DNA of 64,000 nt from Glaucostegus cemiculus. Taxonomy: Eukaryota. The first letter of the stretch is position 1, and each line of letters opens with the position of its first letter. The notes beneath the pieces were generated by a model. The model saw only the letters and a list, made by a program, of their open reading frames with translations. It was not told the DNA's origin and searched no databases. Shown here piece after piece: positions 5,981-47,300 of the stretch. The stretch is taken from positions 14,074,001-14,138,000 of the forward strand of contig CDPCPM010000033.1 of the NCBI GenBank assembly GCA_976551045.1. Reading direction: 5' to 3'. A program made the position numbers and the translations under genes.

Positions 5981-7011
5981 CCAACACATCATGGTGACAA
6001 GAGAATTAACATTACCAAAATTTGTATTTCTTTTCCTGTCAAATATTTTGAAATATTAAATCATATATCACAAACATTAAGTTTATTTTCATATCTTAAA
6101 TTATTTCAAGTTGTATACCAGTACCATTTTTATACGATTTCATAGTTCTGTCCCTCCACCTGTAGTTGTTGAAGTGAGTTATTTCATATTTAATAACAAG
6201 ATAAAATGATTGATTTAGAAGTTATATTTGGTTTTGCACCAAGCAGGACATGTCTCTGAGAACATGATCCTGTGGTGAGAGAAATACAGTTGGAATTGGT
6301 ATTACAATAGGGATTACATAGTTAATAGAAATAGGTGATATAGAAATAAAACTAGAATCACTGCACATTTTGCTGATTGTTTCAGAAGATATATCAGAAA
6401 GCATCCTTGCATAATGGAAATGTTAGCCTATTTCTCTCTCAATGGACGCTGTGTAATATGCAGAGTATTTCAGTCCAGGCCTGGTCTGAAGTGCAAGCGA
6501 TTAAATAGAATCCTTCTTGAGCTGATCAAGCCAGTAAAGTAAGAAGGAAAATTGTAAACTTTGTGGAACTCACATGAAGTCTCAATTTTCCTGTGCAGTT
6601 ACATAGAACAATACAGCACAGGAACAGACCCTTCTGCTCATGATGTTGTGCCAAACAAATTCTTTCTTTCTTTACGATATTTTTTATTAATTCCCAATAG
6701 AAAATACAAATACATGAAACAAAAGAAAAAAACAAAATGTTACAAAGTACATTGTATTCACACTTGAAATCACAATACCTCATATTGATAAACAGAAATG
6801 ATAACTAATTAATATTAATAAATTGGAATAATTTTATTATAAAAAAATCTAAACCCACTACTAAGACCGAAGCTTTTTGATTTTAAAAAAAGGCCCTGAA
6901 GACATAATAGTATTAGCCAATATCTGTACTTTAAGCACCAGATCAATGGTTTTGAAAGTAGTTCAAAAAAGGACCCATGATTAAACTCCATCTGCCACTT
7001 CTCTGCCCATA

Positions 7012-7523
7012 TGGTCGTCTCACTAAAGGAAGGATGTGGAAGCTGTAGAGAGAGTGCAGAGGAGGTTTACGAGGAGGCTGCCTGGGATGAGGAGCATGCC
7101 TTATGAGAGCAGGTTATGGGAACTCAGCCTTTTCTCCTTGGAGAGAAGGAGGATGAGGGGGGACTTGATTGAGGTGTATAAGATGTTGAGGGGTATGGAT
7201 AGGGTAGGTAGTCGGAAGATTTTCCCCAGGGCTGAAATGGTGGCCACAAGAGGACATAGGTTTAAGGTGCTGGGGGGAAGATATAGGGGAGATGTTAGGG
7301 GTAAGTTTTTTACTCAGAGAGTGGTGAGTGCGTGGAATGGGCTGCCGGAGATGGTGGTGGAGGTGGATATGTTAGGGTCTTTCAAGAGACTGTTGGATAG
7401 ATACATTGGAGGTAAATAAGATAGAAGGCTATGGGTAAACCTAGTAATGTGGGGACATGTTCAGCACAGCTTTGTGGGCCGAAGGGCCTGACTTATGCTG
7501 TAGGTATCTATGTTCTATGTTCT
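7012..7523 (+). mobile_element. CR1 LINE 3' fragment, well preserved
   Basis: ORF 7036..7419 EAVERVQRRFTRRLPGM...LFSLERRRMRGDLIEVYK...FFTQRVVSAWNGLP; ends in a ctatgttctatgttct tail. Confidence 0.92.
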
Positions 7524-26329: not shown

Positions 26330-26477
26330 ATGAGTGGAATTTTGAAGCGCAAGTTTGAAGATGTTGAAGGAACCTCACCATGCTCTTCTGTAAGGGAGTC
26401 AGATGATGAAGTCTCTGGGAGCGAGAGTGCCGAGAGTGGTGACAGTGTCAACCCATCCACTTCCAGCCATTTTACTC
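26330..26477 (+). CDS. CSRNP3: CSRNP3 coding exon 1 (148 nt; probable acceptor ttgttacag at 26304)
   Basis: MSGILKRKFEDVEGTSPCSSVRESDDEVSGSESAESGDSVNPSTSSHFT matches the CSRNP3 N-terminus. Kozak-like gcaccATGa; donor C|gtaagt at 26478, phase 1. Confidence 0.95.
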
Positions 26478-28090: not shown

Positions 28091-31000
28091 TACTCAATCA
28101 TTATAGTTTGATTCCATACAAACCTCTTGAGTCCTCTGATACTAGGTGAGGGATGGCAAAGCTAACTAAATGTTTTCTTTATTTATGGATTGCAAATTTC
28201 TCTGCCATATGCCACCCCTCGCTGACATCATGCGAAATTACAGCACTAGTTTCCCCACACAGGCTGACAGTAATCAGCTCCAGCTCATCACCACTCTCCA
28301 TTATCCTGGACTATAAAACTGCTTCTTTTTCATCCTGTGATGGATGATCAGAGGTTTCCTGTACAGAAATATTGGGAATATTGAAGCCATTATAATTTGT
28401 GCCCATCTCAAACCATGTTCATCATCGGTAGCTCCCATTTTCTTCATCTCACTGGCATGTCCTGCTGTCTTTGGGGTTAGAAGGTGCACAGGTGGGTGGT
28501 TGGAGTGACCCCAACAATTATGCCCTGAATGTCCACCTCCATTGGCACAACGTAGCATCAGCCATATGAGATGTGTGGTGTCTTTTCCCATCCGTCACCC
28601 ACTGAAAAGCAAACTCACTGTTCGGGAACTGATACTTCAGTGACATTCATAGCTAGTGATCACATTTTAAAGATTGCCCTTTTTGTGTGACTTAGCTTTT
28701 AGTGCAGTTTCTATAAGTAGACAAGCAATATGCAAATGTCGAATTACATTTTGTACACATTAGAAAATGGCTTCCATATAGCCCTAGTTAATCCTTGCCA
28801 GACCCTTGTGCAACATAGTTTTTGTGCACATTTTCCATTAAATGTCTAGGTATTGTATCATTTATACATTTTTTTAGCCATGTATTAAGATTAATTAAAG
28901 TTACCATACCAAATTAAAATAATTATAATAACGTAACCTTTCTGCACCCTTCATCCTGGCTGTCTAGGCCTTGGAATTAAACTAAAGGCATATATTCAAC
29001 CAAATCTGTCAATATTCATTTGAGAGCAGATGAAATTTTACCCTAAAAATCGACTGACCGGCCAGTGAGACATAAGGTTTAGATAATGGGTGTAACTGAG
29101 GTCATATTCACTCAGAATTCATTTTATTAATAGCATTGCTAAATTAATAAAGTTCACTGAATTAAGATTTTCTTTTGAGGGCTACAAATAATTATATCAA
29201 TCAATATATTTGCATGAAATTACATTTTTATTCATTCTTGGTACAATATTCTTAAATAAAATATGTTTATGTGTAGATATCTGATGATGATTTAATGGTA
29301 GTATAGTGCATATTAAATTATGAAATAGGAGCATATGTTATCAGCATTCTGTGCTTGTAGCATAGTGCTGAGTGGATGCTCTCATCACCTATGTTTGGTT
29401 TATTAAACAGTATTAAAAGAAAAATTTTGACCTCTTTCATTTTTAACAGTTCTTTCAACTTAAGATAATTTTATTTTGCTTTTCATTCAGTTTAAATCTT
29501 TCTTGGTGTATTTTCAGTTCTAGTTGTTTTGTTTTAGTTGCAATTATCTTTGTTTAGTCTCTTGCTTTTGAGTGGAGACTTCTGTTCCCTGCCTCACCCC
29601 CACTCTCAGTACTATGGCTGTTGTATGTCCCTGAAATAAGTGATCAGCACCAGAAATATGCACAATTTGGTCTTAACTCATTTGAGCATCCCACATAAAA
29701 ATCAACCGATTATTGGTCAAAGGTCCTGAGACGTTTGACAGATGATCCTTAAAGGCACCAATGGAGGTTTCTGACTAAAGGTTTAGAAGGTTTCCATAAT
29801 TTTTCTTACGGAAGTGCTGCAGGTTGTTCCTAGCTCATGCTCACTGCCCACCCCTACCGCTTTGCCTCTTCCTCCGGTCACAAGTGAGCTGTCCAAAATG
29901 TTTAAGACCACACATTGTTCGTTTACTCTGCTCTCTGATTTCATGTGAATGAAACAACTGACATGTTTCAGTAGGATTTCATGAGGACATGTCTAGGTGG
30001 GAATGCCCTCTCGGTTTCTTTCCAAGTCACAAACCACCTTGACTTAGAAATACATCACCATTCTTTCATCATCATTTGAACTCCCTACTAAACAGCATTA
30101 AAGCAGCACCTTCACCATAAAGACTGTGGCAGTTCAAAAAGGTGACCACCTCAATCTTCAGATCTACATTTAAAGGCAGGAAATAATCATTAGCTTCCCT
30201 AGAAATAGCCGTATCCTGTAAATGGACAAATAAAAGTGGGAGTTGGTAAGAAAAGTATTTTTTTTAAATGTCATGTGAGGGTTTTCAATTGACTTTGAAA
30301 AAGTTCTCTAACACAGGCCTTGTCTGTTTAATATTAAAACTGTAAATCTAGATTTTTTGTTGATTATGGAAAGATTTGAATTTTAACTTGCACATCTTGT
30401 AGTTATTTAAGAAAATTGATTTAGATGAAGTACCAGATATTTTATGAAAGACTAAAAGCCCTTTATGCTTCCATAATTGATGTGATTGCTGATATTGAAA
30501 TATAAAAATGAAGTTTTTGAATGCTTCAGTATATTTTCATAAGCCCATCTGTCATTGCTACATTGCTAATAATTAATTCCTTAGAAATATGCATGAAACA
30601 TAAAGCTCAGAAGAATTAGCCATCAGTATCAAATTATGTAGAACTTGTCAATATTCAAACACCTCTCAGTTCACGTCCTGCTTAGCAATTTATTTGTTCT
30701 ATGATGATCACCATTTTAAGAATAGTTGCTAATTTACCGCAGTTCCCTGCCACACTGCTGGTCCAGAAGGGAAATTAAACCCATTGTTACGAAGCAAACT
30801 AATACCTTTCTAACAGATTGCTTCACTTGTTTTTTTTTGTAAATACTGTCTGTCAGCGTGAAATGGACATATAAAATCTCCAGTTTCTCACACCATTATA
30901 GTTCCAGTGCCTCTGTGGTGAGACGCTGAATTTGAGCATTCCTGAAGCCTTTTTTCATGCAATTCTAAACAGTTGGTTCTCATGGATATTGGCCGAGGTC

Positions 31001-32609
31001 TGACGGCAGGTTACTTAGTCACAGTTGGCATATAACCAACCTTAAATAAAAGACACAAGAACAGGAAGTTGTTGTAAAAACATGAGCTATATCCCACATA
31101 TAAACTAATGTGCTGACCAGCATGCACCTTTGCGTGTTTTGTGGTAGAAGTTTTAAATGATGCCTCACATTGTCTTTCAAGTCTGGAATAATCACTTAAA
31201 AACTGATATAAACCTAATTTTTTCAAGTGATTACCAATACAGTAATTGAAAGATTTTGTAGACCCACAATAATGTGTAGATTACATTGGGAAACTATAAA
31301 ACCCACATTAGTGTTGGATTTTTAACCAGGAATTTCAATAATAGCACCATCTGATATTTGTACTTGTGTTTTCCTTGGTAAATGAGATTGTGGATCTTTG
31401 CTGTAATATCCATGAAATGATTTTTCAACAAGTAATATGGGTGATGAGATACAATTGTCAAATCACTAACTCAATTCTCTTTAGTAAAATCATCACTTGG
31501 TTAGTTAAAGTTATCCCACTAATAGCATCAGGAAAAGCCAGTCCTGAATTCACATTGTGTTTCTCATTAATTTAGCTCAGGATTTACAAAATCCCTGTAA
31601 AATTTGTAACCGTGGAGCACATTTGAAGTATTATCTTTGATGTCTGTCAGCTAGTCTTTTTCTAAGTAAGCAGATGTGTTACACTTGTTTTAACCAAGCT
31701 TTTGGCATGTTCCTTTTTTTTGTGTGGCTGAGGCAATATTAGGAAGTGCTTATGTTTTGGAGGTCAGCCAGAATTCATGCTTGCCAGATGTTAGTTCTTG
31801 AGGACTCCTCCTCCTAGTTTTAAAGATATTTTTATGTCTCCGTAAAGATTTCTACTTCCATTTCTTCAATACATACATAATAGAGAAAGAGAAACAGAAT
31901 GAATCAATATCTTTTTCCACTTTTTATTTTTCAGCCAAATTGCAAAAGCAAAAAGTAACCCAATGTGATAGCTGTGGTTCATACCTTAAGAAATTCAACA
32001 CTGGTCTTAAATTATGAAATAATAAATTATCATAATAGAACATCTTGATATATTTTCACTACATTATTTCACATGTACTGTAATTTTGAATACTGTACAG
32101 GAGAGCTGTTGGAAAGTACGTCAACTAATTTTATGAACCCCAGAATATGTTTGAATGATTGGATATATTACAGGATTTGAGATAAATTGATAGATTGATG
32201 CTGGCATGCAGTTATCAACCATACATGAAGCAGAGTATTCTTCATATATTTAAGTAATTGGTGTGCAGCCACATCACTCAAATTAAACCTACAGTACAGT
32301 TTTAACAAGAAGTGGAAAATTTGGTCATCTTGGACAATTAAATGCTGGCTCAGCCCATGATGCCCACGTGAATACATGAAAAAAACCTGGGATTGAATCT
32401 GGTTGGCAAATTGCAAGAAAATATTGTCTCACTTGTCTAAAGATGACAGCTGGGTTTGCCCAAAGCCTCACCTGACAACAAATCAACAAGTTATTTCAGG
32501 GTCAATAGCAGAAGCTGATTTTAAAATCCAATGTAAACTATCCAAACCACTTTTTTTGTTGAAATTTTTTGTTGTCGATGCAAAAACTAGGAGAATGTAT
32601 GTTTTCATG

Positions 32610-33240
32610 CTTTCTTACAACAGGCAGGTAATAATGCATCTTCAAAGGCTTTGCTGAAATCCATGTAGCAATCTTCTTTGTTATCTCTTCAAAAGAAAAC
32701 CTCAGGTTTATGAGACATGTTTTCCCATACACATTCTGACTATCCCTTATCAGTACTTGCCTTTGCAACTGCTGGTAGTTTCTGTCCCTCAGATCCCCTC
32801 CGGTAACTTTCCCACCACTTGTTCTTGTAGCCCTTCTTAGAGAATGGCACAATATTAATCATCCTCCAGTATCTTTTATCCAGTACCTCATCCATGGCTA
32901 ACAATGATGCAAATATCTCTGGCAGCTTTCCTGCTATTTCTTCCCTAAATTCCCACAATGTCCTAAGGTCAGGTCGCAGGGATTTATCCACCTTTATGTG
33001 GTTTAAGACTGCCAGAACCTCCTTTGTAATGTGAATATGTTCCAATACATCACTACTCATCTCCCTTAATTCCTTTGCTTCCATAACCTTTTCCAGGGTA
33101 AATATGAATGAAAGCTATTCACTTAACACCTCACCCATCTCCTGTGGCTCCACACAAAGATGACCACATTGACCCTTAAGAAGACCTATTCTTTTCCCAG
33201 ATACCCTTTTATACTTAGTATACTTGTTGAATCTCCAGGA
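32610..33240 (-). mobile_element. CR1 LINE ORF2 fragment
   Basis: Minus ORF LEHIHITKEVLAVLNHIKVDKS..PD.RTLWEFREEIAG.L.EIFAS. Confidence 0.85.
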
Positions 33241-33711
33241 TTTTTACAGCAGTCTTGATTAAATGTTTTCAAACTGAAACAGCACTGGAACTTTTTTTTT
33301 GGTATCAATGCTTTCTACACCTCTCCCCACCCCCTTTGAGCCTTCAGGCCAAAGATCATTCCTTTCTGGAATCTCACTCAGTTAAAGCCTTTCCCCATTT
33401 AGTGGTGTCTGTGTGCTAATGCCAGTGGACTCTGAGTCGCTGGAAGAGGAGACTACCTGCTGAAACGAAGGCTGGGGAATTCAGTTCCAGGGTGTGGTGA
33501 GAGATCGACTCTACCTGTGAGTCAACAGTGGGAAGGTTAGCTATTCTGTAATTGGTGAGGGACTCTAAAAATCTGCTCACCCTCTGACATGAAACAATGG
33601 TAAGTAATGACAGTTACAACAGTAACTCCTTTTTGCTGGTTAGACATTCTGGCCTATTAGTTTTAAAGGGTGATGGTTCATTGTGGCTTTATTGCATTGG
33701 TACAGTATGCT

Positions 33712-33850
33712 CATAGACTCACAGAGTTATACAGCATGGAAATAGGCCTTTTGGTCCAACTTGTCCATGCCGACCAAGATGCCTACCTGAACTTTTCTTA
33801 TTTACCTGTGTTTGGTCTAGATCCCTCTAAACCTTTCCTATCCATGTACA
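33712..33850 (-). mobile_element. CR1 3' tail fragment
   Basis: catagactcacagagttatacagcatggaaataggccttttggtccaac is the reverse complement of a CR1/HE1-type tail. Confidence 0.65.
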
Positions 33851-35018
33851 CATACCTTGCCAAAACTCCCCCGTAGATGAAAGTGTGCTGGTTGTATTAT
33901 GGTGTGACCCTTTAAAGGATATTTCAATACTTGCTGAGATTAAAAGCTATGAGAAAAGGTACTATTAACATGGAAAATTCAGCCACTAACCCCTGCTATT
34001 TCTGAAAGTGCCCTTAATGAACTTTACAATTTTCTTCATTAGAACTTTTTAAAATGGTGTTAGGATGACAGTTAATGCTGATTTGAAACTGGCAAAGTAA
34101 GTAAAGGTGAACTTCTAAGCTAATAACTTTAAATCATTCGAAACTGCACTCAAATAAATTAAGCTTATCGAAATATATGGTTGCATTTGCATCTCAATTC
34201 TGGTCACATTTCCAGTAGATTTTGTTGAATACAAAGAGGCAGAAGTGCAGGTATTAAAGTTGTAGAATGCCTGGGGTTATGTATGAACTATTGGACTTGA
34301 GTTAATATGATGAAGGTTTATATCTCAAAAGGTAATTATGCACTGCACCCCAAGTATTTTATAATTTAACCGAAAATTATAGGGGTAACTATAAACATAA
34401 ACTCTTTCCGAAGCTACTTACATAAATGCTCCTGCATTCATAGAACTTTCTTTTTTGCCATCTCAGGAAAAGTGTATAAAGTTATAAAAAAAACAAAATT
34501 CAAACAAAGGTATCATGAACTGCACTTAATGTATACTCACATCTTTTTTGCAAAATAAAAGCCTTGCACCATGAATAGATGCAAGCACAATAGCACAGAA
34601 TAATAAAAGTGCACAGAATTTCAGCCAAAGGAAAGCTAATGCTGTATCTGCTCTTCCACAGTCAACATTACTTTGTATGACTACCTTCCCTTCAAATATA
34701 TAGGAATGTATAAACAGTAAAAGCCATTGTAACCAGTTTCTGTTGACAAAATTGTTGATGGGAATGTTGATACTTTTTTGAGAAATTTATTATATATTTG
34801 ACCCACTAAAGGATCACTGAGCATCCTTATCCTTAAAATGGATATTTTCAACTTCCTTGAACTCTTATTTTTTGGATAGTTCCCAAATGTAATCAGTCTC
34901 CAGGGCCTAATAGAAGCAGCTATTTTTCATTACATATCAACAGACTGTGTCAGCTTGTAAGTAGTGAATTCTAGCTGTGTCTGGCCCCGTCTATTCATGA
35001 TTCTTGTAAAAGAATACA

Positions 35019-35069
35019 TGTGTCAGTTAGACATAGATAATGTGCTGTCCCCCTGGCTAGGAACACTGG
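35019..35069 (-). repeat. intronic inverted copy of CSRNP3 exon 2 core (pairs with 35510-35560)
   Basis: Its reverse complement matches the exon at 42/51 nt with no gaps; it translates as SVPSQGDSTLSMSN*H versus exon SVPSQGGSTLGMSNRH. Confidence 0.9.
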
Positions 35070-35413
35070 GATACCCTACCTCAACTAAGTGGAGTGCTGA
35101 TTGATTTTTTTTACTCCTCTGTAGACTGAGGACACTGTGGAAACGATATTGCCAATTACCCTCCTGACCCATATAGCTAAAAGTACAACAGATAGTACAT
35201 TTCATCCACTAAGTCAGGGAAACATTTATATAGCATTTACCACAGTTTTAGATAATCACCTAAGAGTAGGTGTTGCCAATTTAATAATGTTAAACTTTGC
35301 CCACAAAGAATCATTAACTTGTCTCAGATTTTCAAAACAAGTACCTCTTTCATCTATTGTGGTTAATGTGTGGAAAATAGTGTCTGAACTAATTTACCTT
35401 TGTACACTTCCAG

Positions 35414-35673
35414 CATCATCTATTCTGAAAAGGGAGAAGCGGATGAGGACAAAGAATGTTCGCTTTGACTATGTGACTGTGTATTACTTCACACGGAGAC
35501 AGGGCTTCACCAGTGTTCCCAGCCAGGGGGGCAGCACGCTGGGTATGTCCAACCGACACAAGTGTGTACGACAATACACACTTGGGGAATTTGCACTGGA
35601 ACAAGAGAGACTCCACGGGGAGATGCTGAAAGAGCATCTGAAGGAGGAAAAGTTGAATTCATTAAAACTGAAG
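35414..35673 (+). CDS. CSRNP3: CSRNP3 coding exon 2 (260 nt)
   Basis: Acceptor cttccag|ca, donor aag|gtatga. Encodes PSSILKREKRMRTKNVRFDYVTVYYFTRRQGFTSVPSQGGSTLGM...KEEKLNSLKLK, including SILK and RVxF-like PP1-docking motifs. Frame is continuous with exons 1 and 3. Confidence 0.97.
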
Positions 35674-36349
35674 GTATGACAACTTCCTTATATATTAAAA
35701 CTCAAATAATATGGCATCTGGTTGTTCAGAAATCCTGACAGTCCAGCATCCCAAGCTTATTCATTAGCCAGGGCTCCAGAAAGTAAACCTTGTGTTCAGC
35801 AAGAGCCAGAGATCTGGAGTACTTGGCTGTTTCTCACTTTTAAACTCACCATGTTCACTGGAAAATTTATTATACCACTGTGTGTGCAACATGTTAAAAA
35901 AGTGAAATAAAAGTATGTTTGGATATTAATCGGAACAATGTCCAGACCAAAGCCCCAAAGGTGCCAGATTATCGGAATGTCATTATACATCCCTATTTGA
36001 AATATATGTAGTGGTTGTGAAGTTGTATAGTTTGTGGAGATCACATGTTTAAAACCATGAAGGATTATTTGCAAGTGAATATTGGAGTGGTCTCTTCTTG
36101 CATTTTGCAGAATTTTTAAACTTAAAGTGCAATTCATGGACCCAAATCTACATTAACAGAAAAACCAATACACCTTGATTTAATCAAAAGTCCTGTTACC
36201 AATCTCAAACAACACTGATCTGCAACCAGCTTTGATTTGTCTCACTTGGTTGATCATAGCAGTAACCAACTGAGGAGATGACTTGATTGCTCCTCTTTGG
36301 GTAAATCTTTGGATCAGCATCATAGTGCACACCAGCCCCTCAACTGGTG

Positions 36350-36850
36350 TATTTTTTATTTAATCATTTTTGATATCTTTGCATTGCTGGCAAGGAGAGA
36401 GCTTAATGTCCATCCTAATTACCTTTGAAGGTACTGGTGGGCCATCTTTCCCTGAATGTATTCCCACTAAGCTGTTGGGCAGGGAGTTCCAGGACTTAGA
36501 CAAGTGGACATGTAAGGGCACTGATACATTTCTAATGATGGTGTGCAACTTGGAAGGAATCTGTAACTTGGAAGTGTTCCCAAGCAGCCTTCTGCCCTTG
36601 CTGTTTTTGGTGGTAGACCTCACAGGTTAGGGAAGTGCTGTCGAAGTAGCCTGAGTAACTGCAGTGCATTTTTGTAGATGGTATGCACTACAGCCACTGT
36701 GTGCCAATTATAGAGAAAATGGATGTTTAGGGTGATGAATGGAGTGCTAATCAAGTGGGCTGCTTTGTTGGAGCTGCATTCATCCAGGTAGACCAGCAGA
36801 CAGTATTCCATCATCTCCTGATTAGTGCATTGTAGATGGTGGAAGGGTCT
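36350..36850 (-). mobile_element. CR1/L2-group LINE 3' end (same family as 27560-28090)
   Basis: Minus ORFs SKSWNSLPNSLVG and MEYCLL..LDECSSN. Confidence 0.7.
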
Positions 36851-36894
36851 CCTTTTATTTTGCTTCTGTCATTTGAAATGTAGGTAAAAACCTT

Positions 36895-38520
36895 GAGGAA
36901 GATCTTCTTCAATTTCTTTCACTTTCTCCAAGTCAAAGGTATACCTCTGGAAATTTATATGGGGCCAAGCTATGCTTGTCTTTTAACTGCATACATGCAT
37001 TACCCACCTTTTACTTTAAATACTTCTGATGATCCACCTTCCAACATCCTCGTTTTAGTTCTGTTTATGTTGCTTCCTCCTTTCTCCCTGGCAGTCATGG
37101 AGCACTTTGGCTCTAGTGACCATAATTCTGTTAGTTTTAAGATAGTGATGGAAAAGGATAGGACAGCTCCACCAGAGCAGGGCTCACTTGGGGGAACTAG
37201 GCAGGATTTACAGAGGTCGATTGGGTGAGCCCTCTTGAAGGGAAAGGGATGAATAGTAAGTGGAAGGATTTTAAGAGTGTGATATCAGGAGTCCAGGAAC
37301 AGCATGTTCCTGTTAGGTTGAAGGGTAAACCTGGCAAGTTTAGGGAACCTTGGCTGACGAGATATATAGAGGTTCTGGTTAAGAAAAAGGAAGCATATCT
37401 TAGGTTCAGGAAGTCAGGGACGAGTGAATTTCTTGATGACTATAAGAAGATTAAGAATTAAGAGGGAAATCAAGAGGGTAAAGAGAGGGTATGAGATGGA
37501 TCTGGCAGGTAAGGTTAAGGAAAATTCCAAGAGGTTCTACAGCTATATTAAGAGTAAAAGGGTGGGTCAGGAGAGAGTAGATCCCCTTAGAGATCAGCAG
37601 GGCCACCTATGTCTTGAGCCGCAAGATTTGGGTTGGATTTTTAACAAATATTTCTCCTTGGTGTTTACTGAGTAGAAAATCGTGGTTGCTCAAGAGATAA
37701 GGGAAACAAGTGGAGATATTTTGGAGGACGTTCATATTACTAGGAAGGAGGAATTTTCAGCCTTAGAGTGCATTAAGGTGGAGAAATCCCCAGGGCCTGA
37801 CCGAGTGCATCCTTGGACTTTGCGGAAAACCAGAGGAGAAATTGTGAAGGCCCTTGCGGAGATGTTTGCTTCATCGTTAGACACTGCTGAAGTTCCTGAA
37901 GACTGGAAGGTGGCCCTGCCATTTAATATGATTATAGTTGATTTATGCTGGCCTCAAATCCTCTTCTCCATACCCCTCTATTCCTCGATCTATCAAATAT
38001 TTATCCATCTCCATTTTAAATACTTCTAATGCTCCAGTTTCTACCAGGGGCAGACAATCCCAGGGATATCGAAGAGACTAAATGTAGATTGGATAACTGC
38101 TTTGTAGAACTCATCAGTCCACAAAGACAACCTTGAACTTGAACCTGTTACTTTAATTCTCAGTCTCACTCCCACTTTGACTTCTGGCTTCAACCTTCTA
38201 TGCAGTTCCAAAAATGCCCAATGTAAACATGAAGAAGAATAATCATCTTCTGTCTGGGCACATTGCGGTCCTCAGGACTTAATATTGAATTTAACAAATT
38301 TTCTCTCTTTCCACACATGTAGTTGTACCTTCCTGTTTCAATTTGCATCACTTTTCCTTTTTGTCTCATTTTTTAAAAAGTAATGGTTATCTTAACAACT
38401 TTGCTCTGCACCTTATCTCAGACATTCCTTCTGAACTCCACACCACACCAACTGAAAACACGCCTAATTTCTCACTTATCCAGCTCTAGTCCAGAGCATT
38501 TGACCTAGAATTACCTGACA
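36895..38520 (+). mobile_element. fragmented Penelope-like element (RT and GIY-YIG remnants) with a nested CR1
   Basis: HFLQVKG.....MGPSYACL at 36920-36985 is a Penelope RT motif. atcttctgtctgggcacattgcggtcctcaggacttaatattgaattt (IFCLGTLRSSGLNIEF) at 38245-38290 resembles the ORF end. Confidence 0.65.
37090..37915 (+). mobile_element. CR1 LINE ORF2 internal fragment
   Basis: EHFGSSDHNSVSFKIVMEKD, EPWLTR, KENSKRFYSYIKSKR, KSPGPDRVHP, EVPEDWKVA. Confidence 0.9.
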
Positions 38521-41405
38521 TAATTCGACAGTAAGCAGGGAGCACCATCAGATCACTGCTGACATTAGGAATAGTTTGTCACTTGTTTTGGAATAATTCA
38601 CTCATTGGAAACAGCTGGATGTTGCCAGAACCCTTTCAGATGAGGCAAGAAACAAGTCCCACCCACATCGAGCCCCACTGTCATTCTGTTCCTTATTTTT
38701 GAAGCATAATATTGATAACACTACTGTCTAAATGCACCTCCTCCATTGCATTCACCCTTCATTCCATCAGTATAATTCCTTTCTTTTGATGCTAGCACCA
38801 GTGTCGGTGCCAAATATTGATGCTACCCTTCATTTACAAACTTGGCTCCTTTCAATCTAAGAATCACAAAAAAAAACTGTAATCTGCATTTTCATCTCTT
38901 AGAATTCAATTTGATATTCATCCACCCCATTTTCTGATCATCAACAGATAATGGCCTCTGAACAATGTTGATAAAAGAAACTCTGAACCAAAAACATGCA
39001 GTGAATGTAATTCTGGATGGTCCGATGGTTTTTGCCATCATCATGTTAAAGACCCAGTGTAGATGTTGCCACTCTGTCTACTTGTTTCTGCTTGTCCTTT
39101 GTCCCCAGCAATTTCCACCCTGAATATATCCTTAATTGGATAATGGTCTGTTGAGGTGATTAGCCTCTTTCTGTATCAGCAGTCAACAGGATTATATATA
39201 TACATTGTAGGATGGTTCATTGTTAATGCATTCATTTTGCAATGCTATCATAGCAGCTGCACATTCCATTGATACTGAATGTCACAAGCAATGTATGAAG
39301 TCCAAACACCTGTATATTGTGCATTTAAGGGAATGTGCAGGATTCTCAATTCAGCAGCAAATATAATTAAAATGAAATATTATTGATAATTAAAGACAAA
39401 TCAACACCCAGGTGAGTTTAGTAGCCTGGTAGTTACAGAACTGGTCAGGAATCCAGGAATGGTGATTTTAATTATATTGTTTCTGCACAGTCCATAAAAG
39501 AGCTACTGAGTCCAAATCCCACCTTTGGGCTCTGATTGTATTTGCTAATCAAATCCTCACATTTTAAATGTTAGATGGTTTCTGCCTCCATTGCCTTTTG
39601 GGGAGCAAGTTCTAGAAACTTGTTACTCTTTGGGTGAAAGCATATTTCCTCAACTCTCCTCTAATTTTTTATATTTGTGCCTCCTCTCTGCTGAAGGAAA
39701 TAGATCTTTCCTGTTCTCCCAATCTGGACACCTCATTATCTAAAATTTACCCTATCCTCTCTCCTTTGCTCAACATCCTGCTCTTATATTCTGTGCCCTG
39801 GCCAATGTACTCCTTGCTACCTTCAAGTAACTTATGGTAAAGTAAAAATTCCAAATAACTGAGATTTGGAATCTATGAACATTCTGCTTTTTTAACACTC
39901 TACAGCCGTGATGTTTTTGATAAGCATTGAGCAGATGCAAGGTTCAAAGTAGTAACTACAGTTTTAAATCATTGCAGTTCCAAAGGCAACTAATTGCAGA
40001 TTGTTATGTCATTAGTCTGATATATAAATATGGATTATTTTATTTGACATATTTTAAAAAGCTCTTTGCTACAGTATATTATATTAAAACTTTGCTTTGA
40101 GACCAATACCAAGTCAAAAATATAATTTGTTGATGCATACTTCTCATTGTTGGCAAAACCTGTGCACCTTTTTTTAAATGAAAAGTATTGGGAAGATAAT
40201 TATCAAAGCGAAAATTATTTATTTTTGCTAGCTCCCCCCTCCCTTCCCAGATAATTACTGGTGAACCAAATCATCAAGAGTTCTACAGAATTAACCACAG
40301 GGTAAGGTCAGTGGCATGTCACTCTGAAGCAAGAGACCACACACTGATAGAACCAAGTGCAAGATATGAAATGTGCTTATAATTAAACCTAATTTCTTAT
40401 AGCTTTGAAAAGCATTGTTTGTATTTCCTGCTGTAATTGTCTTTATTCCTGTTAAAAGGCACGTCATGATGATTCATACATCATTCCAGTACTTTCTGAC
40501 CATGAATAGTGTTCCCAGAACACACAGGATGCTGATTTCTTGAGATTGATGATGATATTAAAGATGTACCTGTGTTACTCATGTTAATGTACATTTAACA
40601 CATGTTGGCAGCAGAATAGTCTTCAAGAGAAATATTTGCCAAGCCACTTATTAATTTCTTAGCAATGATGTATTGCAGTAAGATGAGTTCTTAATTACTA
40701 ACAAGTTATCACATAATGAAAACTTATAGATGTAACAACACAAGCAGGCCATTCAGCTCAAACACAGAGACAGTAACCTCATGAGAGAAATGGTCCATGT
40801 TAACATTTATCTTCCAACTGAGCAGATAGATTTCTAATCATAATGATTCAATCAATTCACATATTTTTCTTCATTCACCCACCCAATCTTGAAAGTAGTC
40901 TGCTTCTATTTACCCCATCCAGTCCCTGAATAATTTTTTAAAACTACTATCATAAAATCCAGTTAGATTTTGTTTTTCATTTTTTTCTTTGTTTCCTCAA
41001 TTAAGCAGCAGCCCAGTAAATATACATTGTGCCCTCTTAAAGCTTTAGCAATCTTCCTTCTTTGTGATATCTCCATGGTAGACCCAAAACGTTAAGTTGG
41101 TTTCTCTTTCTAAAGACGCTGGCTAGCCTGTTGTGCATTTCCGCCACTTTCTGTTTTCATTTAAAATTCCACTCATCCCAGTGTTTTGCTTTGATTCTCA
41201 TGATGATGGTTGTGGTTTTACTATTTCAACTGATAGCCTTTACATGAAGACCTATAAAAACGCACTACTTTAGAAATTTCATGCACTGAATAGATGTTAC
41301 TTAAGTTTATATGATTCACTTAACATCAAAAACTATCCCAAGTGAAGTTTTATTGAACAAGGATTGGTTAGATGTCATTAAATCAAATCACCTTTTGCAT
41401 TGCAG

Positions 41406-41702
41406 CTAACAAAAAATGGAACAGTGGAATCTGAAGAGGCCAATACACTCACATTAGATGACATTTCTGATGATGACATTGATCTAGATAACACTGAAGT
41501 AGATGACTATTTCTTCCTACAACCATTGCCAACTAAAAAGAGAAGGGCTTTGTTACGGGCTTCTGGTGTTAAAAAGATCGACGGAGAAGAAAAACATGAG
41601 CTCCGTGCAATTCGAGTATCCAGGGAAGATTGCGGCTGTGATTGTCGAATATATTGCGATCCTGAACTTTGTGCTTGTAGTCAAGCAGGGATTAAATGCC
41701 AG
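41406..41702 (+). CDS. CSRNP3: CSRNP3 coding exon 3 (297 nt)
   Basis: Acceptor ttgcag|cta, donor cag|gtaagc. Encodes [12 protein letters not shown]...[23 protein letters not shown]...[28 protein letters not shown], the cysteine-rich domain. Confidence 0.97.
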
Positions 41703-41944
41703 GTAAGCAGATGGCTTGTTATGTATAAACACACTGGATTTGAAATAGTTGCAAATATATTTTTGAGATTTCCTGTTCATGATACAAACATTTTTGTCAG
41801 GTCACCCAAATCAAATGAACTCTTGTTCCCTCACCCCCCAGTCTGGTTCAGTATACTTCTTATCTGCTGACTTCATAGAGAAAATAATATGTTTTGCCTT
41901 GTACCTTTGTTATGAACATTATTTCACTTTATGAGCTACATGTG

Positions 41945-42215
41945 CAGCACAATGACACTGCTAGTGGAGCTGCTGCCTCACAGATCCAGCGATCTGGGTT
42001 CAATCTTGACCTCTGGTGCTGTCTGTGTGGAATTTGCACGTTCTCCCTGTGACCATGCAGGTTTCCTCCAGGTGTTCCAGTATCCTTGTATGTCCCAAAG
42101 ACATGCAGGTTCATTAGCCTCTGTAAATTGCCCCCAGTGTGTAGGTGAGTGGTAGAATCTCAGGAGAGTTGAAGGGATTCAGGGAGAATAAAATGGAATT
42201 AGTGTAGGATTAGCA
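41945..42215 (+). mobile_element. HE1-like V-SINE
   Basis: gctgctgcctcacagatccagcgatctgggttcaatcttgacctctggtgctgtctgtgtggaatttgcacgttctccctgtgacc; homologous to 18990-19325. Confidence 0.8.
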
Positions 42216-43299
42216 TCCCTTCATGGTTGCAGGGACTTTGGTGTTGAATAACTATGGAGAAGTGGAATTACTGACAGGCCTGTTTTTTGGTAAACAAAAT
42301 AATTTATTGAAAGCACTGCAGGGGCTACTTTTTTATATGTTTTTTTTAATTGGCATATATGTATTGATGAAAAATCCATCAGCCTTTGCTATCATTAAAA
42401 CATGAAATTGACGGGACCTTCAAGACAGATGGAGTTAAACAGAGAAATCCTGAAGATGCTTTCAGCGATTTCCTGCTTTTTCAGAGATGTGCTGGTTTTT
42501 GACCAGCTGCAGAATAATACCCAGAAAACAATCACAATCAACTCAAATGTTTATCTCATTGTAAAATGTTTTGAAAGTGTTATATTTCATTGTATGAGGT
42601 GAGTTTTTAAAATGATGCATAAAATCATTATTGCTTAACAAACAATTCTGCAATTTTAAGAAGTAATTTTATGTATGTGTATTTCAAATATTTCAGAATA
42701 TAGTGAATTTTTTTTCTTTTAAAACATCTACTACTGATAGCTCCCATAACTAAATTTATCTATGTTCCAAATTTTATTTAAAATTCTGTAAAATGTTTAA
42801 TATGTTACTCAAACATTTTGCTTTTCACATCTTTTGTGGCTCTCCAGCCACACTGTTGCTGGATGCCAATGATGCATTTGAACTGAAGACAGACATGAGT
42901 AAAGGTAAAGTCCAAGCCATGGAGATAGTTACCTCCTTGTTGACGGCTTTCTTTAAGGTCATTGGCAAATACAGTTGCTTTGCCTCTGATTGCAAAGGTC
43001 AAGTTATTAACATTACTTAAGGTAAAAAGACAATCTTTATATTTATTATGCTTCCTGTGAAGTTGTTTCTTCCATAACACTGACTTGTTTTTTTCCATTA
43101 AGATAGATGAGAAAAAGCACTTGAGAGTGGGGTTTCATAGCATTCTGTACTAAGCAATGAAACCAGGAAAACACTAAGCATTAGCCACTGTAGAGTACAA
43201 CATGTGCTGTCCCTCAGCACATGAAAACATGTTTTTTTGGTCCTCTGGGATGGAACCTGTAGCCCATGCATAATAATTGATCTATGCCATTTTCCCTAG

Positions 43300-44370
43300 G
43301 TGGACCGTATGTCTTTCCCATGTGGATGCACAAAAGAAGGGTGCAGTAATACTGCAGGCAGGATTGAGTTCAATCCTATAAGGGTACGGACACACTTTTT
43401 GCACACAATAATGAAGCTGGAGTTGGAAAAAAATCAGCAGCAGCTTGGAATAGAGAATGGTTTCTCAGGAGACATGAATGCCCATGCTGGCCATCTGGTG
43501 GCGAGCCAGCAGCCCCATGAATATTCTGTTGCAGAAAGCTTTGATATTGAAAATGAACCAGAAACGGCAGTGATGCACTTACAGTCAGCAGAGGAGCTGG
43601 ACTGGCAAGCAGAAGATGAGGAGGAGGAGGAGGAGGACGACGGGAGCAGTCTGTGTAGTGGCGTCACAGACTCGAGCATTCAGAGCTTGGCAGCCAGCGA
43701 GTCGGACGAAGAGGCAGACGGCAAAGTATTGAGTGCCCCTGTCGTAGCACAAAATGAAGCGGTTTCCCTTCCTTCTGTATTATGTTATGCTGATGGTACT
43801 TCTGTGCATGACAGCTCACCACCAGAAGCTGCCTCTTATTACACTAACTCATCAACATTGTATTATCAGATAGAGTGTAATGCTGCTGCTACGACTACTG
43901 CTACTACCAGCACCACAACTGCTGCTACGGATTGTGGCAATGAGCCTTTCTGTGTAGAAGCCACCTTAACTTCAAACTACACAGAGAGGAGTCAGGAGAC
44001 TGGAGCACTTTCTTTGGTGCCTTATGGCTCAGCTACAGATCAATATATTGAGTACACACAGCAGCCGGAGGGAAACTTTACTAGTGCTCACTATCCCATT
44101 ACAACACCCTCCGTGATAGTTTGTTGTCCCTCAGCACATGAAAACAATGCTCAATGTAACAGTTTATATTCTGAGCAACAACCTAGCCACTCTCGAGCAG
44201 AGCTACAAAGCTATTTAAATAACCACGTGCAAGATGACTATGTTGCAGCTTCAAATGGGGATGTTTATGCACCCAAGCAGGTACTGGAAAATACCATCAT
44301 CCTCCCAGAGGGCAGCGCATTGTTAGAAGAGACTATCAAAACATCAGTAGTGGAAACTGTGTTTGTTTAG
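43300..44370 (+). CDS. CSRNP3: CSRNP3 last coding exon (1071 nt to TAG); total protein 591 aa
   Basis: Acceptor ttttccctag|gtg. Encodes [44 protein letters not shown], an acidic tract, [16 protein letters not shown], and C-terminal [13 protein letters not shown]. Confidence 0.97.
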
Positions 44371-47300
44371 TTTGCTCAGTTGCTGTATGCTTTGTCCCTT
44401 ACTACAGTTTACACCAGTTATTCAGAATGGGAAAGAGTATGACTTAATAGTTTACAATTTTAACAGTCATCACCTTTAGTACGACTGATCAGTAACAGTG
44501 ATTAATAAATACCACTAGGTTTCAGTGGTTTAAAGACTGCAAAATGTAATCGGAAACAAGTTTCATGCATAGCTGTGAAACACTGCATTAAACATTGTGA
44601 TTTAATGTAAGCCATTCAAGTCACTAATAATTTATTTGACTTTCAAAAGCATTTTAACTGTTAAATAACCATCACTGATGAAGGACACCAAGGCATCCAG
44701 ACTGAATATTCCCTCTTGGCTTTTAGTCAATGTGACAATCTCAGAAAATTTAAAAAGGTCCCTGTTTTCAACAAAAACGTGGAAAAAACACTATTTATGT
44801 ACTGTACATGTGAAAATTGTGGAAATAATTTTGTTTCATCTGTGAATTTATTTATGCCAGTTCGTGTGCAATTTTGTGAAGTATATGTTAAATATTTCTC
44901 TTTGATTAATGACAAGGGAAACAGATAATCCAATTCATGGTAACAGCAAAGATTGTTTAAAATGATGTAGGCCTCATTTTCACCTAAGGAGTTATTTTGA
45001 ATTTATTATGTAGACAGTCCTTCCTTTGCTGTGTTTTTATTTAGTACTCTATAGAATTGTAAAGGCAGAACAGCTGGCACAAAAACTAAAGTCTAAGTGT
45101 CTCTTAAGCGTATGGGAACTATCCCAAAACAGAATCTTCCATTTCAGCTTATAGCATGTGCCATTGAGCTGTTGAATGAGAAATCCTGTATTGCCACACA
45201 GCCACTGACCATATTGCACATAAATAACACATTAATAACTTCTGTGAAAACACACAGAAGTGGTAGTGGGGAAAATCTATTCATGTTATCGCTGATCACT
45301 AAAGGAGTACATCACTTCTGTTAAGCAAACTAAAGTGAAATCTTTACTACAGAAGAAAGGTTGTGCTCTTTATATTTACTGTGCTGTTTTTTTCCAGTTA
45401 AGGTTCAATATTTTTTAAGAAAGGGAATCAAGATGTTTTATCAGGCAACATGTTTCTATTTTATGTCACTCCACTGTGATTTATAATTTATTAACAGTGT
45501 AAATAGTACTGCCAGTGTCTTCTAACTGCATGAAACAGTTCACAAAATGGAATAGTGCAGAAAATCAGATTTAGCAAGATAAAATTTCTCAAGAAGCAGC
45601 CCATGCAATGTTTGATCAAGTTGTGGCTTTTCAAACGGCATTCCAGGAAAACACTGTTTACTTTAATTCATAAATTCCCTTGAGGGAGTAATAGTGCTTA
45701 TGAAGTGGGAAGAAAATACTCAGGCAACCCTGGGGAAGGTCATTTGTTATGAGAGCCTCATTTTAACACTCCATTATATGATTCCTGATATCTTTTGACA
45801 GCAATCAGAGGGTGTGAAGTTATGCCCGAGGTGAGGAAAATAAATCCCTTCTTGGTGACAAGTTTATTTCACACAATGCATCTTACTTAAATTTTGCTCC
45901 TATTTAGCCATTACCTTGGTGAATAAGAACTTGGATTTCAGGTTTGTGATTTAACAAAAATACTGAAAGGTTCAAAAAGTTTTACTTTTCAAAATAGTCA
46001 GTCAAACACTTTAAATTCTGTCCAGTTATCAAACATTACAGCTATTAGAGGAATTATAACTAAATACCTAGTCCACTTTAGAAGCCAAATTCTTACCTGC
46101 ACAAGTTGGAGCTTTGTCAATAATCTTGAAATTTATTTCAAGTCTGGCATATAAACAAAATACAATCATAACTGTTCATTATTTGTAGCATGCAACATGC
46201 TCGGATAAGAAGCGAACAACTTGCTATCTCCAGTCAGCTGGAATAAATATTCAGAATTTCAATCAGCAATGCTTAACATTTAAAACCCAAACTCAACTCA
46301 AATCTACTAGTTGTAAATTCCAAATTTGATATTTTAGATAAACTATTGGATTAGCTTATATTTTAAAAAAATCCAAAATTAATGTAACTATTTGAATTGT
46401 CTTTGTTTAAAATACAGCTTTGAGAAGGCAAACCAAATTTAATTTTCAGTATTCTTTATAATGCAACTAAGAAAACAAAAGTACATTACTGGTTAAGCTA
46501 GTCGAGTCTTAGAATCACACATGTTGAAACATGGCTATCAACCTGTTGTATAATTGTGCACCAATTTACTTGCAAAGAGAACTGCAGTTGTACATGCTAT
46601 TGACATGGTTAAATTAAGGTTAATCTTCCTTTGTCCTGAAATTGGTAGTTAGGTGCCTGACCCAGGCTATGCTGTTGGTCTGTGAGTGACATTTTCTTTT
46701 GGGAGTTCGACTCCCAAAACTTCAGCCTAGCCAAAAGGCTGTCTTAGCACAGACATCTGACCGCAGTTCCTGAACAGCTTTGATAGCTGGCGGGGTCTCA
46801 ATTCCACCAATTACCTGCCTGAGTTAAATTAGGGGCCCTGCTACAGGTTTTGCATGGCTTTACATCAACACTCAGCAAAAATTGACTTATAGAATAAAAA
46901 AAAACCTCTTAAAATGTAATTTCCTTTTAGCATTTAACATTACAAACAACCCATTTCCCACCAACTGTTATCTCCTATTCATTTGAATGGAAACTGCTGT
47001 GCATGTGCTGACACAAAACTGACATAGACTCAGCAGACAAATTCCCCATCCCACAAGTTGGGAATCAGGCTGAACTTTGTTCTGCCCCGGTGGACTCACT
47101 GTCACTGCACAGGAAGAGCTGCAGCAGAGCTGAAGATACCAACACATACATGTCGGCATGTCATTGCTGGAAACTTGGAATTCCAGAGGGAAACCTGGGT
47201 AAGGCCAAAAAAATCTGCCCCCCCCCCCACCAATACATCTCCTAGAATTGTAGATAAAATTAGAGATTCAATTCACAGATATTATATCCCATTAGCTTAA

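What the first reader, a model, noticed from the sequence alone, without database searches (positions are those of the whole stretch)
35019..35560. Intronic antisense copy of the conserved core of CSRNP3 exon 2: candidate editing-complementary sequence (ECS)
Seen: the reverse complement of intron 35019-35069 aligns without gaps to exon 35510-35560 at 42/51 nt, 440 nt away. In the pre-mRNA, 3 of the 9 differences become G-U pairs, so 45/51 positions pair. The segment 35510-35538/35041-35069 has 28/29 paired and is GC-rich. Four mismatches are intronic A opposite exonic C (35025, 35029, 35040, 35059); two of these are in UAG and one in CAG context. Established: ADAR recoding sites such as GRIA2 Q/R depend on an imperfect exon-intron duplex, and ADARs favour A:C mismatches and UAG context. 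Inference: this is an exon-intron dsRNA element placed on the family's signature motif (GFTSVPSQGGSTLGM). Caveat: the same pattern (including CpG-type changes acg>aca and cga>tga) is expected from a neutrally decaying inverted micro-duplication.
Basis: partly seen in the sequence, partly recalled or inferred. Interest (0 to 1): 0.82.

Follow-up and report, generated by a model that had tools for sequence, protein, structure and literature searches.

The report
Backwards exon copy in CSRNP3 intron
A 54-base piece of a CSRNP3 exon sits copied backwards in the intron just before it in a shark-or-ray genome and is predicted to pair with the exon in the unspliced RNA, but it is most likely an old DNA-repair copying scar of a kind common in this region, not an evolved RNA-editing switch.

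Summary
Intron 35016-35069 is a single-copy inverted match (44/54) to CSRNP3 coding sequence 35510-35563, and folds onto it in silico. It is one of many. In 864 kb around the gene, 14 exclusive short duplications lie within 1 kb of their partner (0.13 expected), 6 of them inverted. Two more have coding donors but are direct copies, which cannot pair; one is in CSRNP3 itself. The differences from the exon look like decay: 3 give G-U, 4 give A·C, and every A·C adenosine is intronic. Three relatives keep the arm, at a rate not distinguishable from its flanks (3/51 against 12-13/159 variable sites), including one pair-breaking change. The 29-nt core shows no change in the rows shown, a weak post hoc hint (P about 0.1). 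RNA runs gave 2 reads, so editing is untested. Best reading: a proximal repair-mediated duplication (Pace 2009) that may be edited incidentally, like human ASNS (Gabay 2022). The scan has noted similar cases on other DNA (PRAG1, HCFC1, Dachsous).

The parts
35016..35069 (-). Intronic arm: inverted, decayed copy of 54 nt of the downstream coding exon (read in the exon's frame it carries a stop codon and four missense changes)
   Evidence: single copy in the genome
35041..35069 (-). Best-paired core of the arm (28/29 paired); no difference in organisms B and D, none shared by C, in the rows shown
   Evidence: P of zero changes 0.09-0.11, window chosen after the fact
35510..35563 (+). Donor segment inside the second coding exon, covering the family's conserved N-terminal motif
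35414..35673 (+). CSRNP3 second coding exon, 260 nt (skipping would shift the frame), AG/GT borders
   Evidence: one RNA read of organism C begins at 35414 and runs on unlike the intron
35070..35509 (+). 440-nt loop of the predicted hairpin; holds the 3' splice site at 35413/35414, which is not inside the duplex
43205..43229 (+). Second exon-derived micro-copy in the same gene, in direct orientation (24/25 to last-exon 44122-44146), with a 7-nt repeat at 43199-43205 and 43226-43232; internal control, cannot pair with its donor
44122..44146 (+). Donor of the second micro-copy, in the last coding exon (43300-44367)

Best explanation
The intron holds a single-copy, 81%-identical backwards copy of 54 bases of the next exon, most likely pasted there long ago when a DNA break was repaired from a nearby template, and likely decaying since without selection. 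Shown: the copy, its uniqueness, its presence in three related species, and many similar local copies nearby in both orientations. Inferred: a repair or template-switch origin (no empty site was seen), and an age several times the split from the relatives (18.5% from its donor against about 5% between species). Predicted: the pre-mRNA folds into a duplex of about 50 bp with a 440-nt loop. ADAR may edit it as a by-product, most likely at the intronic A·C adenosines in UAG context (35059, 35029), with at most weak spill-over onto exon adenosines; I put the chance of some measurable editing at about one half.
For: (1) Base rate: of 55 exclusive short pairs (40 bits or more, up to 250 nt) in 864 kb, 14 lie within 1 kb (0.13 expected if placed evenly) and 18 within 5 kb; 7 of the 18 are inverted; identities run 71-96%, so ours (81%, gap 440) is typical. 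4 of the 6 other inverted pairs were searched genome-wide and each gave only its two copies, which argues against transposon ends, though the tool warns that its DNA search can miss common sequence. (2) Coding donors occur in the orientation that cannot pair: CSRNP3 43205-43229 and a 116-nt direct copy beside a galactosyltransferase reading frame. (3) Spectrum: 9 of 10 differences have G or C in the exon (P 0.07 given 34/54 GC); 2 are CpG transitions; the 7 transitions split 3 pair-tolerant (G-U) to 4 pair-breaking (A·C), as strand-symmetric decay predicts. Their clustering is not significant (P 0.14). (4) Relatives: organism B differs at 2/51 arm sites against 38/764 flank sites (P 1.0); B and D together vary at 3/51 against 12-13/159 (P 0.43-0.48). 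35024 C>A in B and C breaks a C-G pair whose exon partner lies in an Arg codon kept in 118 of 120 homologues. D lost 35005-35018, the outer edge of the repeat. (5) No such arm beside the matching exon of the two paralogues in 37 and 29 kb searched. (6) The class is published, with an inverted intronic exon copy in ACSBG2 (PMC2671141).
Against: The 29-nt core has no change in the rows shown for three relatives (P 0.09-0.11; all 3 arm changes outside it, P 0.07). D's deletion stops exactly at the edge of the 51-nt arm. The duplex stays strong in all three relatives (-79 to -81 against -84 kcal/mol). The relatives are close (about 5%), so the test has little power. Only 40 of 125 difference rows were shown; C-only changes and all exon rows were hidden, and the completeness of B's list up to 35360 is my inference from its order. 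5 of 7 transitions are synonymous in the exon frame (P 0.11), so some changes may be on the exon side. No empty site or junction signature was obtained for this copy.
Confidence: 0.75

Rival explanations
1. A repair-born copy has been co-opted as a selected editing-complementary sequence that recodes CSRNP3 (Asn>Ser at A35552, or Gln>Arg at A35525) in sharks and rays.
For: Strong predicted duplex. Core unchanged in the rows shown. In human ASNS a 50-bp exon-intron duplex with one intronic A·C mismatch gained four further sites near the exonic C (PMC8897444 section 12). A35552>G would give Ser, the residue in 60 of 120 homologues. One paper reports 33% and 20% GRIA2 editing in shark brain (PMC8659423 passages).
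Against: No exon adenosine faces a C: 11 of 12 pair with U, one faces A, none is in UAG context. Six of the recodings would change residues invariant in 120 of 120 homologues (three Ser, Gln, Met, His). Arm conservation is not above the flanks, and a pair-breaking change is present in two species. CSRNP3 is absent from the searched supplement of the human 1517-site atlas (2 files not searched), though the arm need not exist in mammals. The shark paper contradicts itself, concluding that no GRIA2 editing was found in sharks.
Confidence: 0.11
2. The duplex tunes splicing: by pairing with the middle of a 260-nt exon it would mask exon signals or slow splicing, and skipping would shift the frame and likely trigger decay.
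For: The exon is 260 nt, not a multiple of three; the duplex is predicted stable.
Against: Neither splice site is inside the duplex; the acceptor lies in the loop. No excess conservation.
Confidence: 0.07
3. The arm is a fragment of a retrocopy or of a paralogue's mRNA, or a chance match.
For: The copied piece lies wholly inside an exon, and 5 of 10 differences are synonymous.
Against: It matches its own exon better than either paralogue (53.6 bits against 30.1 and 28.3). It lies 440 nt from its donor, in the distance class enriched about 100-fold. Chance is excluded by E 3e-7.
Confidence: 0.05

Closest known systems
Proximal repair-mediated duplications (Pace, Sen, Batzer, Feschotte 2009, PMC2671141; seen: part 1 of 8, 12 passages, section 12)
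   Same: [quoted passage not shown]
   Different: Theirs were found by interruption of a transposon and checked against empty sites; here there is no empty site. Ours is shorter (54 against a mean of 162 bp) and copies part of an exon only. No cartilaginous fish was among their species.
ASNS exon-intron duplex of primates (Gabay et al. 2022, PMC8897444; seen: 12 passages, section 12, term search of supplements)
   Same: Exon paired with an intronic sequence over about 50 bp; intronic G-to-A change gives an A·C mismatch opposite an exonic C.
   Different: ASNS editing is measured and its duplex is otherwise perfect. Here there are 6 mismatches and 3 wobbles in 51 nt and no editing data.
GRIA2 Q/R editing-complementary sequence (features recalled; search listings, passages)
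   Same: Imperfect exon-intron duplex over a conserved coding motif, with a CAG Gln codon inside.
   Different: As recalled, its partner lies in the downstream intron, is conserved far above its flanks and is needed for near-complete recoding. Here the arm is upstream, is a recognisable copy of the exon, and shows no excess conservation.

Membership tests
Proximal repair-mediated duplication | Sequence found at one other place only in the genome | tested here: met
   The arm query found only itself at E<=0.001; its one partner is the exon; paralogues match less well.
Proximal repair-mediated duplication | Donor within 5 kb, length about 50-600 bp | tested here: met
   54 nt, 440 nt apart; definition from PMC2671141.
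Proximal repair-mediated duplication | Empty site in an outgroup, with deletion, filler or microhomology at the junction | not testable with these tools
   All three relatives with cover carry the arm; no more distant DNA was obtained (one search found none).
Proximal repair-mediated duplication | No poly(A) tail or target-site duplication of retrotransposition | tested here: inconclusive
   By eye there is no clear poly(A) tract at either end, but at 18.5% divergence such marks could have eroded.
ADAR editing-complementary sequence | Imperfect duplex with the exon in the pre-mRNA | tested here: met
   Prediction only.
ADAR editing-complementary sequence | A-to-I editing of the paired exon | tested here: inconclusive
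   Three RNA runs of organism C laid 0, 1 and 1 reads.
ADAR editing-complementary sequence | Conservation above the flanking intron, with pair-keeping changes (recalled feature of functional sites) | tested here: inconclusive
   Whole arm 3/51 against 12-13/159, one change pair-breaking; core 0/29, P about 0.1; low power.
ADAR editing-complementary sequence | A favoured exonic target (A opposite C, or UAG); a common but not universal feature | tested here: not met
   0 of 12 exon adenosines face C or lie in UAG; the four A·C adenosines are intronic.
ADAR editing-complementary sequence | Editing is lost when the intronic arm is removed | not testable with these tools
   Needs a minigene.
CSRNP3 (host gene) | CSRNP_N domain, best matches named CSRNP3 | tested here: met
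   PF16019 at 98 bits; 97-100% identity to shark and ray CSRNP3; three paralogues in the genome.

The most novel reading that the evidence does not exclude
A DNA-repair scar has become a working editing guide: the 29-nt core is held by selection and makes ADAR recode the conserved motif of CSRNP3 in sharks and rays, a lineage-specific recoding site born from a micro-duplication, with similar exon-derived inverted copies as a general seedbed for new editing sites in these slowly evolving genomes.
Probability: 0.11. Interest if true: 0.65.

Novelty: new member of a known kind. Interest (0 to 1): 0.2.

Why it matters
As a scar it is ordinary. It does show that exon-intron inverted matches need a base rate before they are called editing guides: about 7 per Mb within 1 kb in this region (6 in 864 kb). 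If editing and selection were shown, it would be a datable case of an editing guide arising from a repair duplication, and a recoding site in a lineage whose editing looks little studied (10 papers held all five terms).

Tried and rejected
Editing test: three raw RNA runs of organism C gave 0, 1 and 1 reads on 34980-35600, so no verdict on editing, splicing or expression. No RNA holder on record was listed. The own-species run X1 had no cover over either arm; a filter may remove such records, so this proves nothing. Transposon origin: no further copies of the arm. Known RNA family: none at E<=1 in 30000-45000. Tandem repeat: none at the site. Paralogous arms: none. Host DNA in metagenome contigs: 0 exact matches to a 23-nt core pattern. 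Antisense 61-codon frame over the arm: no support sought or found; it ends at the CpG-derived stop. Literature: 'CSRNP3' with 'RNA editing' gave 4 papers, none on the topic by title and abstract start; a search for an inverted-duplication origin of editing guides listed 15 of 39 papers, none of the 15 with 'inverted duplication'. These are the only searches behind 'not found in print'. Pfam scan of 73 open frames over the 16 control pairs found one clear coding donor and three sub-threshold hits; small exons without a domain would be missed.

Full report
Observation. The repeat extends to 35016-35069 / 35510-35563 (44/54), with E 3e-7 in a window self-search. The 641-nt region folds with the two arms paired (z -5.47 against 20 shuffles). 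In a 1-kb fold most pairs have probability 0.87-1.0; three are lower, 0.36-0.54. The arm found only itself in the 2.85-Gb genome.

Gene. The exon encodes CSRNP_N. Its peptide is 100% identical to a shark CSRNP3 and 97% to two rays, so the genome is a shark's or ray's. Coding segments map at 26330, 35414-35673, about 41403 and 43300-44367. The genome has three paralogues. The other two have no such arm in 37 and 29 kb around the matching exon, and match the arm at 28-30 bits against 53.6 for its own exon.

Base rate. I compared 864 kb around the gene with itself and kept pairs of 40 bits or more, up to 250 nt, whose arms had no third match in the region (55 pairs). Fourteen lie within 1 kb (0.13 expected), 6 inverted and 8 direct; 18 lie within 5 kb, 7 inverted. 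These counts include our pair. Identities are 71-96%. Four of the six other inverted pairs were searched genome-wide and gave two copies each. One direct pair returned only itself. At least 3 of the 18 have coding donors: ours, a direct 25-nt copy of the last CSRNP3 exon at 43205-43229, and a direct 116-nt copy beside a galactosyltransferase frame. Direct copies cannot pair with their donor, so exon copying here needs no RNA-structure explanation. Pace et al. 2009 describe this class: 824 of 1136 single-partner insertions had the donor within 5 kb, and one whole exon was inserted backwards into an intron of its own gene (PMC2671141).

Pattern of differences. Nine of 10 have G or C in the exon (P 0.07). 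Two are CpG transitions, one making a stop. The seven transitions give 3 G-U and 4 A·C, the even split expected of decay on both strands; selection for pairing should favour G-U (inference). Their clustering in the distal half is not significant (P 0.14). Five of 7 transitions are synonymous (P 0.11), so some may have happened in the exon.

Relatives. Contigs of organisms B, C and D cover the arm (4 runs laid; the own-species run has a hole there). Only 40 of 125 difference rows were shown; I infer that B's list is complete up to 35360, while C-only and exon rows are hidden. B differs at 2/51 arm sites and 38/764 flank sites. D, fully listed apart from 3 differences near the piece's end, has 35037 A>G (a mismatch stays a mismatch) and lacks 35005-35018, which removes the outer pairs and leaves 35019 onward. 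Together the arm varies at 3/51 sites and the flanks at 12-13/159 (P 0.43-0.48). 35024 C>A (B and C) breaks a C-G pair, and 35032 C>T (B) makes a wobble. Compensation is unlikely, since the partners lie in an Arg codon kept in 118 of 120 and a Met codon kept in 120 of 120 homologues. Against my reading: the 29-nt core shows no change (P 0.09-0.11, chosen after the fact), the deletion spares the 51-nt arm, and computed duplex energies stay at -79 to -81 against -84 kcal/mol. With species about 5% apart this test is weak both ways. The arm's 18.5% distance from its donor implies an age several times that of these splits (inference).

Editing. Three raw RNA runs gave two reads in all, which is no test. 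One begins at 35414 and runs on unlike the intron, as a spliced read would. The other covers about 35482-35600 at 99% or more, so that single molecule is not multiply edited. Of 12 exon adenosines in the duplex, 11 pair with U, one faces A, and none is in UAG (neighbour preferences recalled). Six possible recodings hit residues invariant in all 120 homologues. Only A35552 (Asn>Ser) gives a residue that homologues carry (60 of 120). The closest functional analogue is human ASNS, where an intronic G>A in a 50-bp exon-intron duplex was strongly edited and four more sites appeared near the exonic C (PMC8897444). Incidental editing is therefore plausible without selection. CSRNP3 had 0 occurrences in the searched supplements of that atlas (one scanned PDF and one large file not searched, which could bear on this). 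A paper on two sharks reports GRIA2 editing of 33% and 20% in one passage and none in its conclusion (PMC8659423). PMC5625713 (12 passages) says that hyper-editing sits mostly in non-coding inverted repeats and rarely in coding sequence.

Verdict. A real, old, single-copy inverted exon fragment, best read as a proximal repair-mediated duplication (0.75) that forms a pre-mRNA duplex as a by-product. A selected recoding guide is not excluded (0.11). The scan has noted similar cases in other genomes and one repair scar in this genome; these are unchecked notes, not support. I had reached the Pace paper before seeing them. Interest 0.2.

Noticed in passing
window 43199-43232 and 44122-44146: A direct 25-nt copy (24/25) of last-exon coding sequence sits in the preceding intron about 70 nt before the acceptor. 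It has a 7-nt direct repeat at its ends and a perfect 9-bp hairpin (43201-43209 / 43215-43223), as a templated insertion might.
   Followed up: partly
G000:C33:13674001-14538000: Exclusive local duplications are dense: 18 within 5 kb in 864 kb (about 21 per Mb), 12 of them with gaps of 0.3-0.9 kb. Pace et al. give 0.08-0.65 per Mb of transposon DNA by a stricter method, so the figures are not comparable; slow sequence change in these fish may keep such copies visible longer (inference).
   Followed up: partly
L081:1388-1503 and L081:1843-1958: 116 nt of a galactosyltransferase (B3GALT-type) reading frame is copied in direct orientation 339 nt away at 79% identity.
   Followed up: partly
L072:4763-4877, 6082-6273, 6956-7039: Two inverted copies abut (6082-6166 and 6168-6273) with partners on opposite sides, like the chimeric two-donor insertions of Pace et al..
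   Followed up: no
L076:3986-4034 and L076:4718-4766: A young (96%) 49-nt inverted pair, two copies in the genome, that ends in a pyrimidine tract and CAG and may copy a splice acceptor.
   Followed up: partly
L067:9002-9102 and L067:9194-9294: Direct 101-nt pair at 75%, 192 nt start to start; no Pfam match above cut-off; could be a coding repeat or an old tandem duplication.
   Followed up: partly
window 35696-35750 and 35839-35950: High-copy repeat fragments just downstream of the exon (depth hundreds of times above single copy in the relatives' contigs).
   Followed up: no
window 32967-33245 and 37521-37802: Two diverged (65%) repeat copies in opposite orientation flank the exon about 4.3 kb apart and could give a weaker long-range pairing.
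   Followed up: no
window 35559-35584: A small hairpin inside the exon directly after the donor segment (two 10-nt arms); it competes with the outer pairs of the exon-intron duplex.
   Followed up: no
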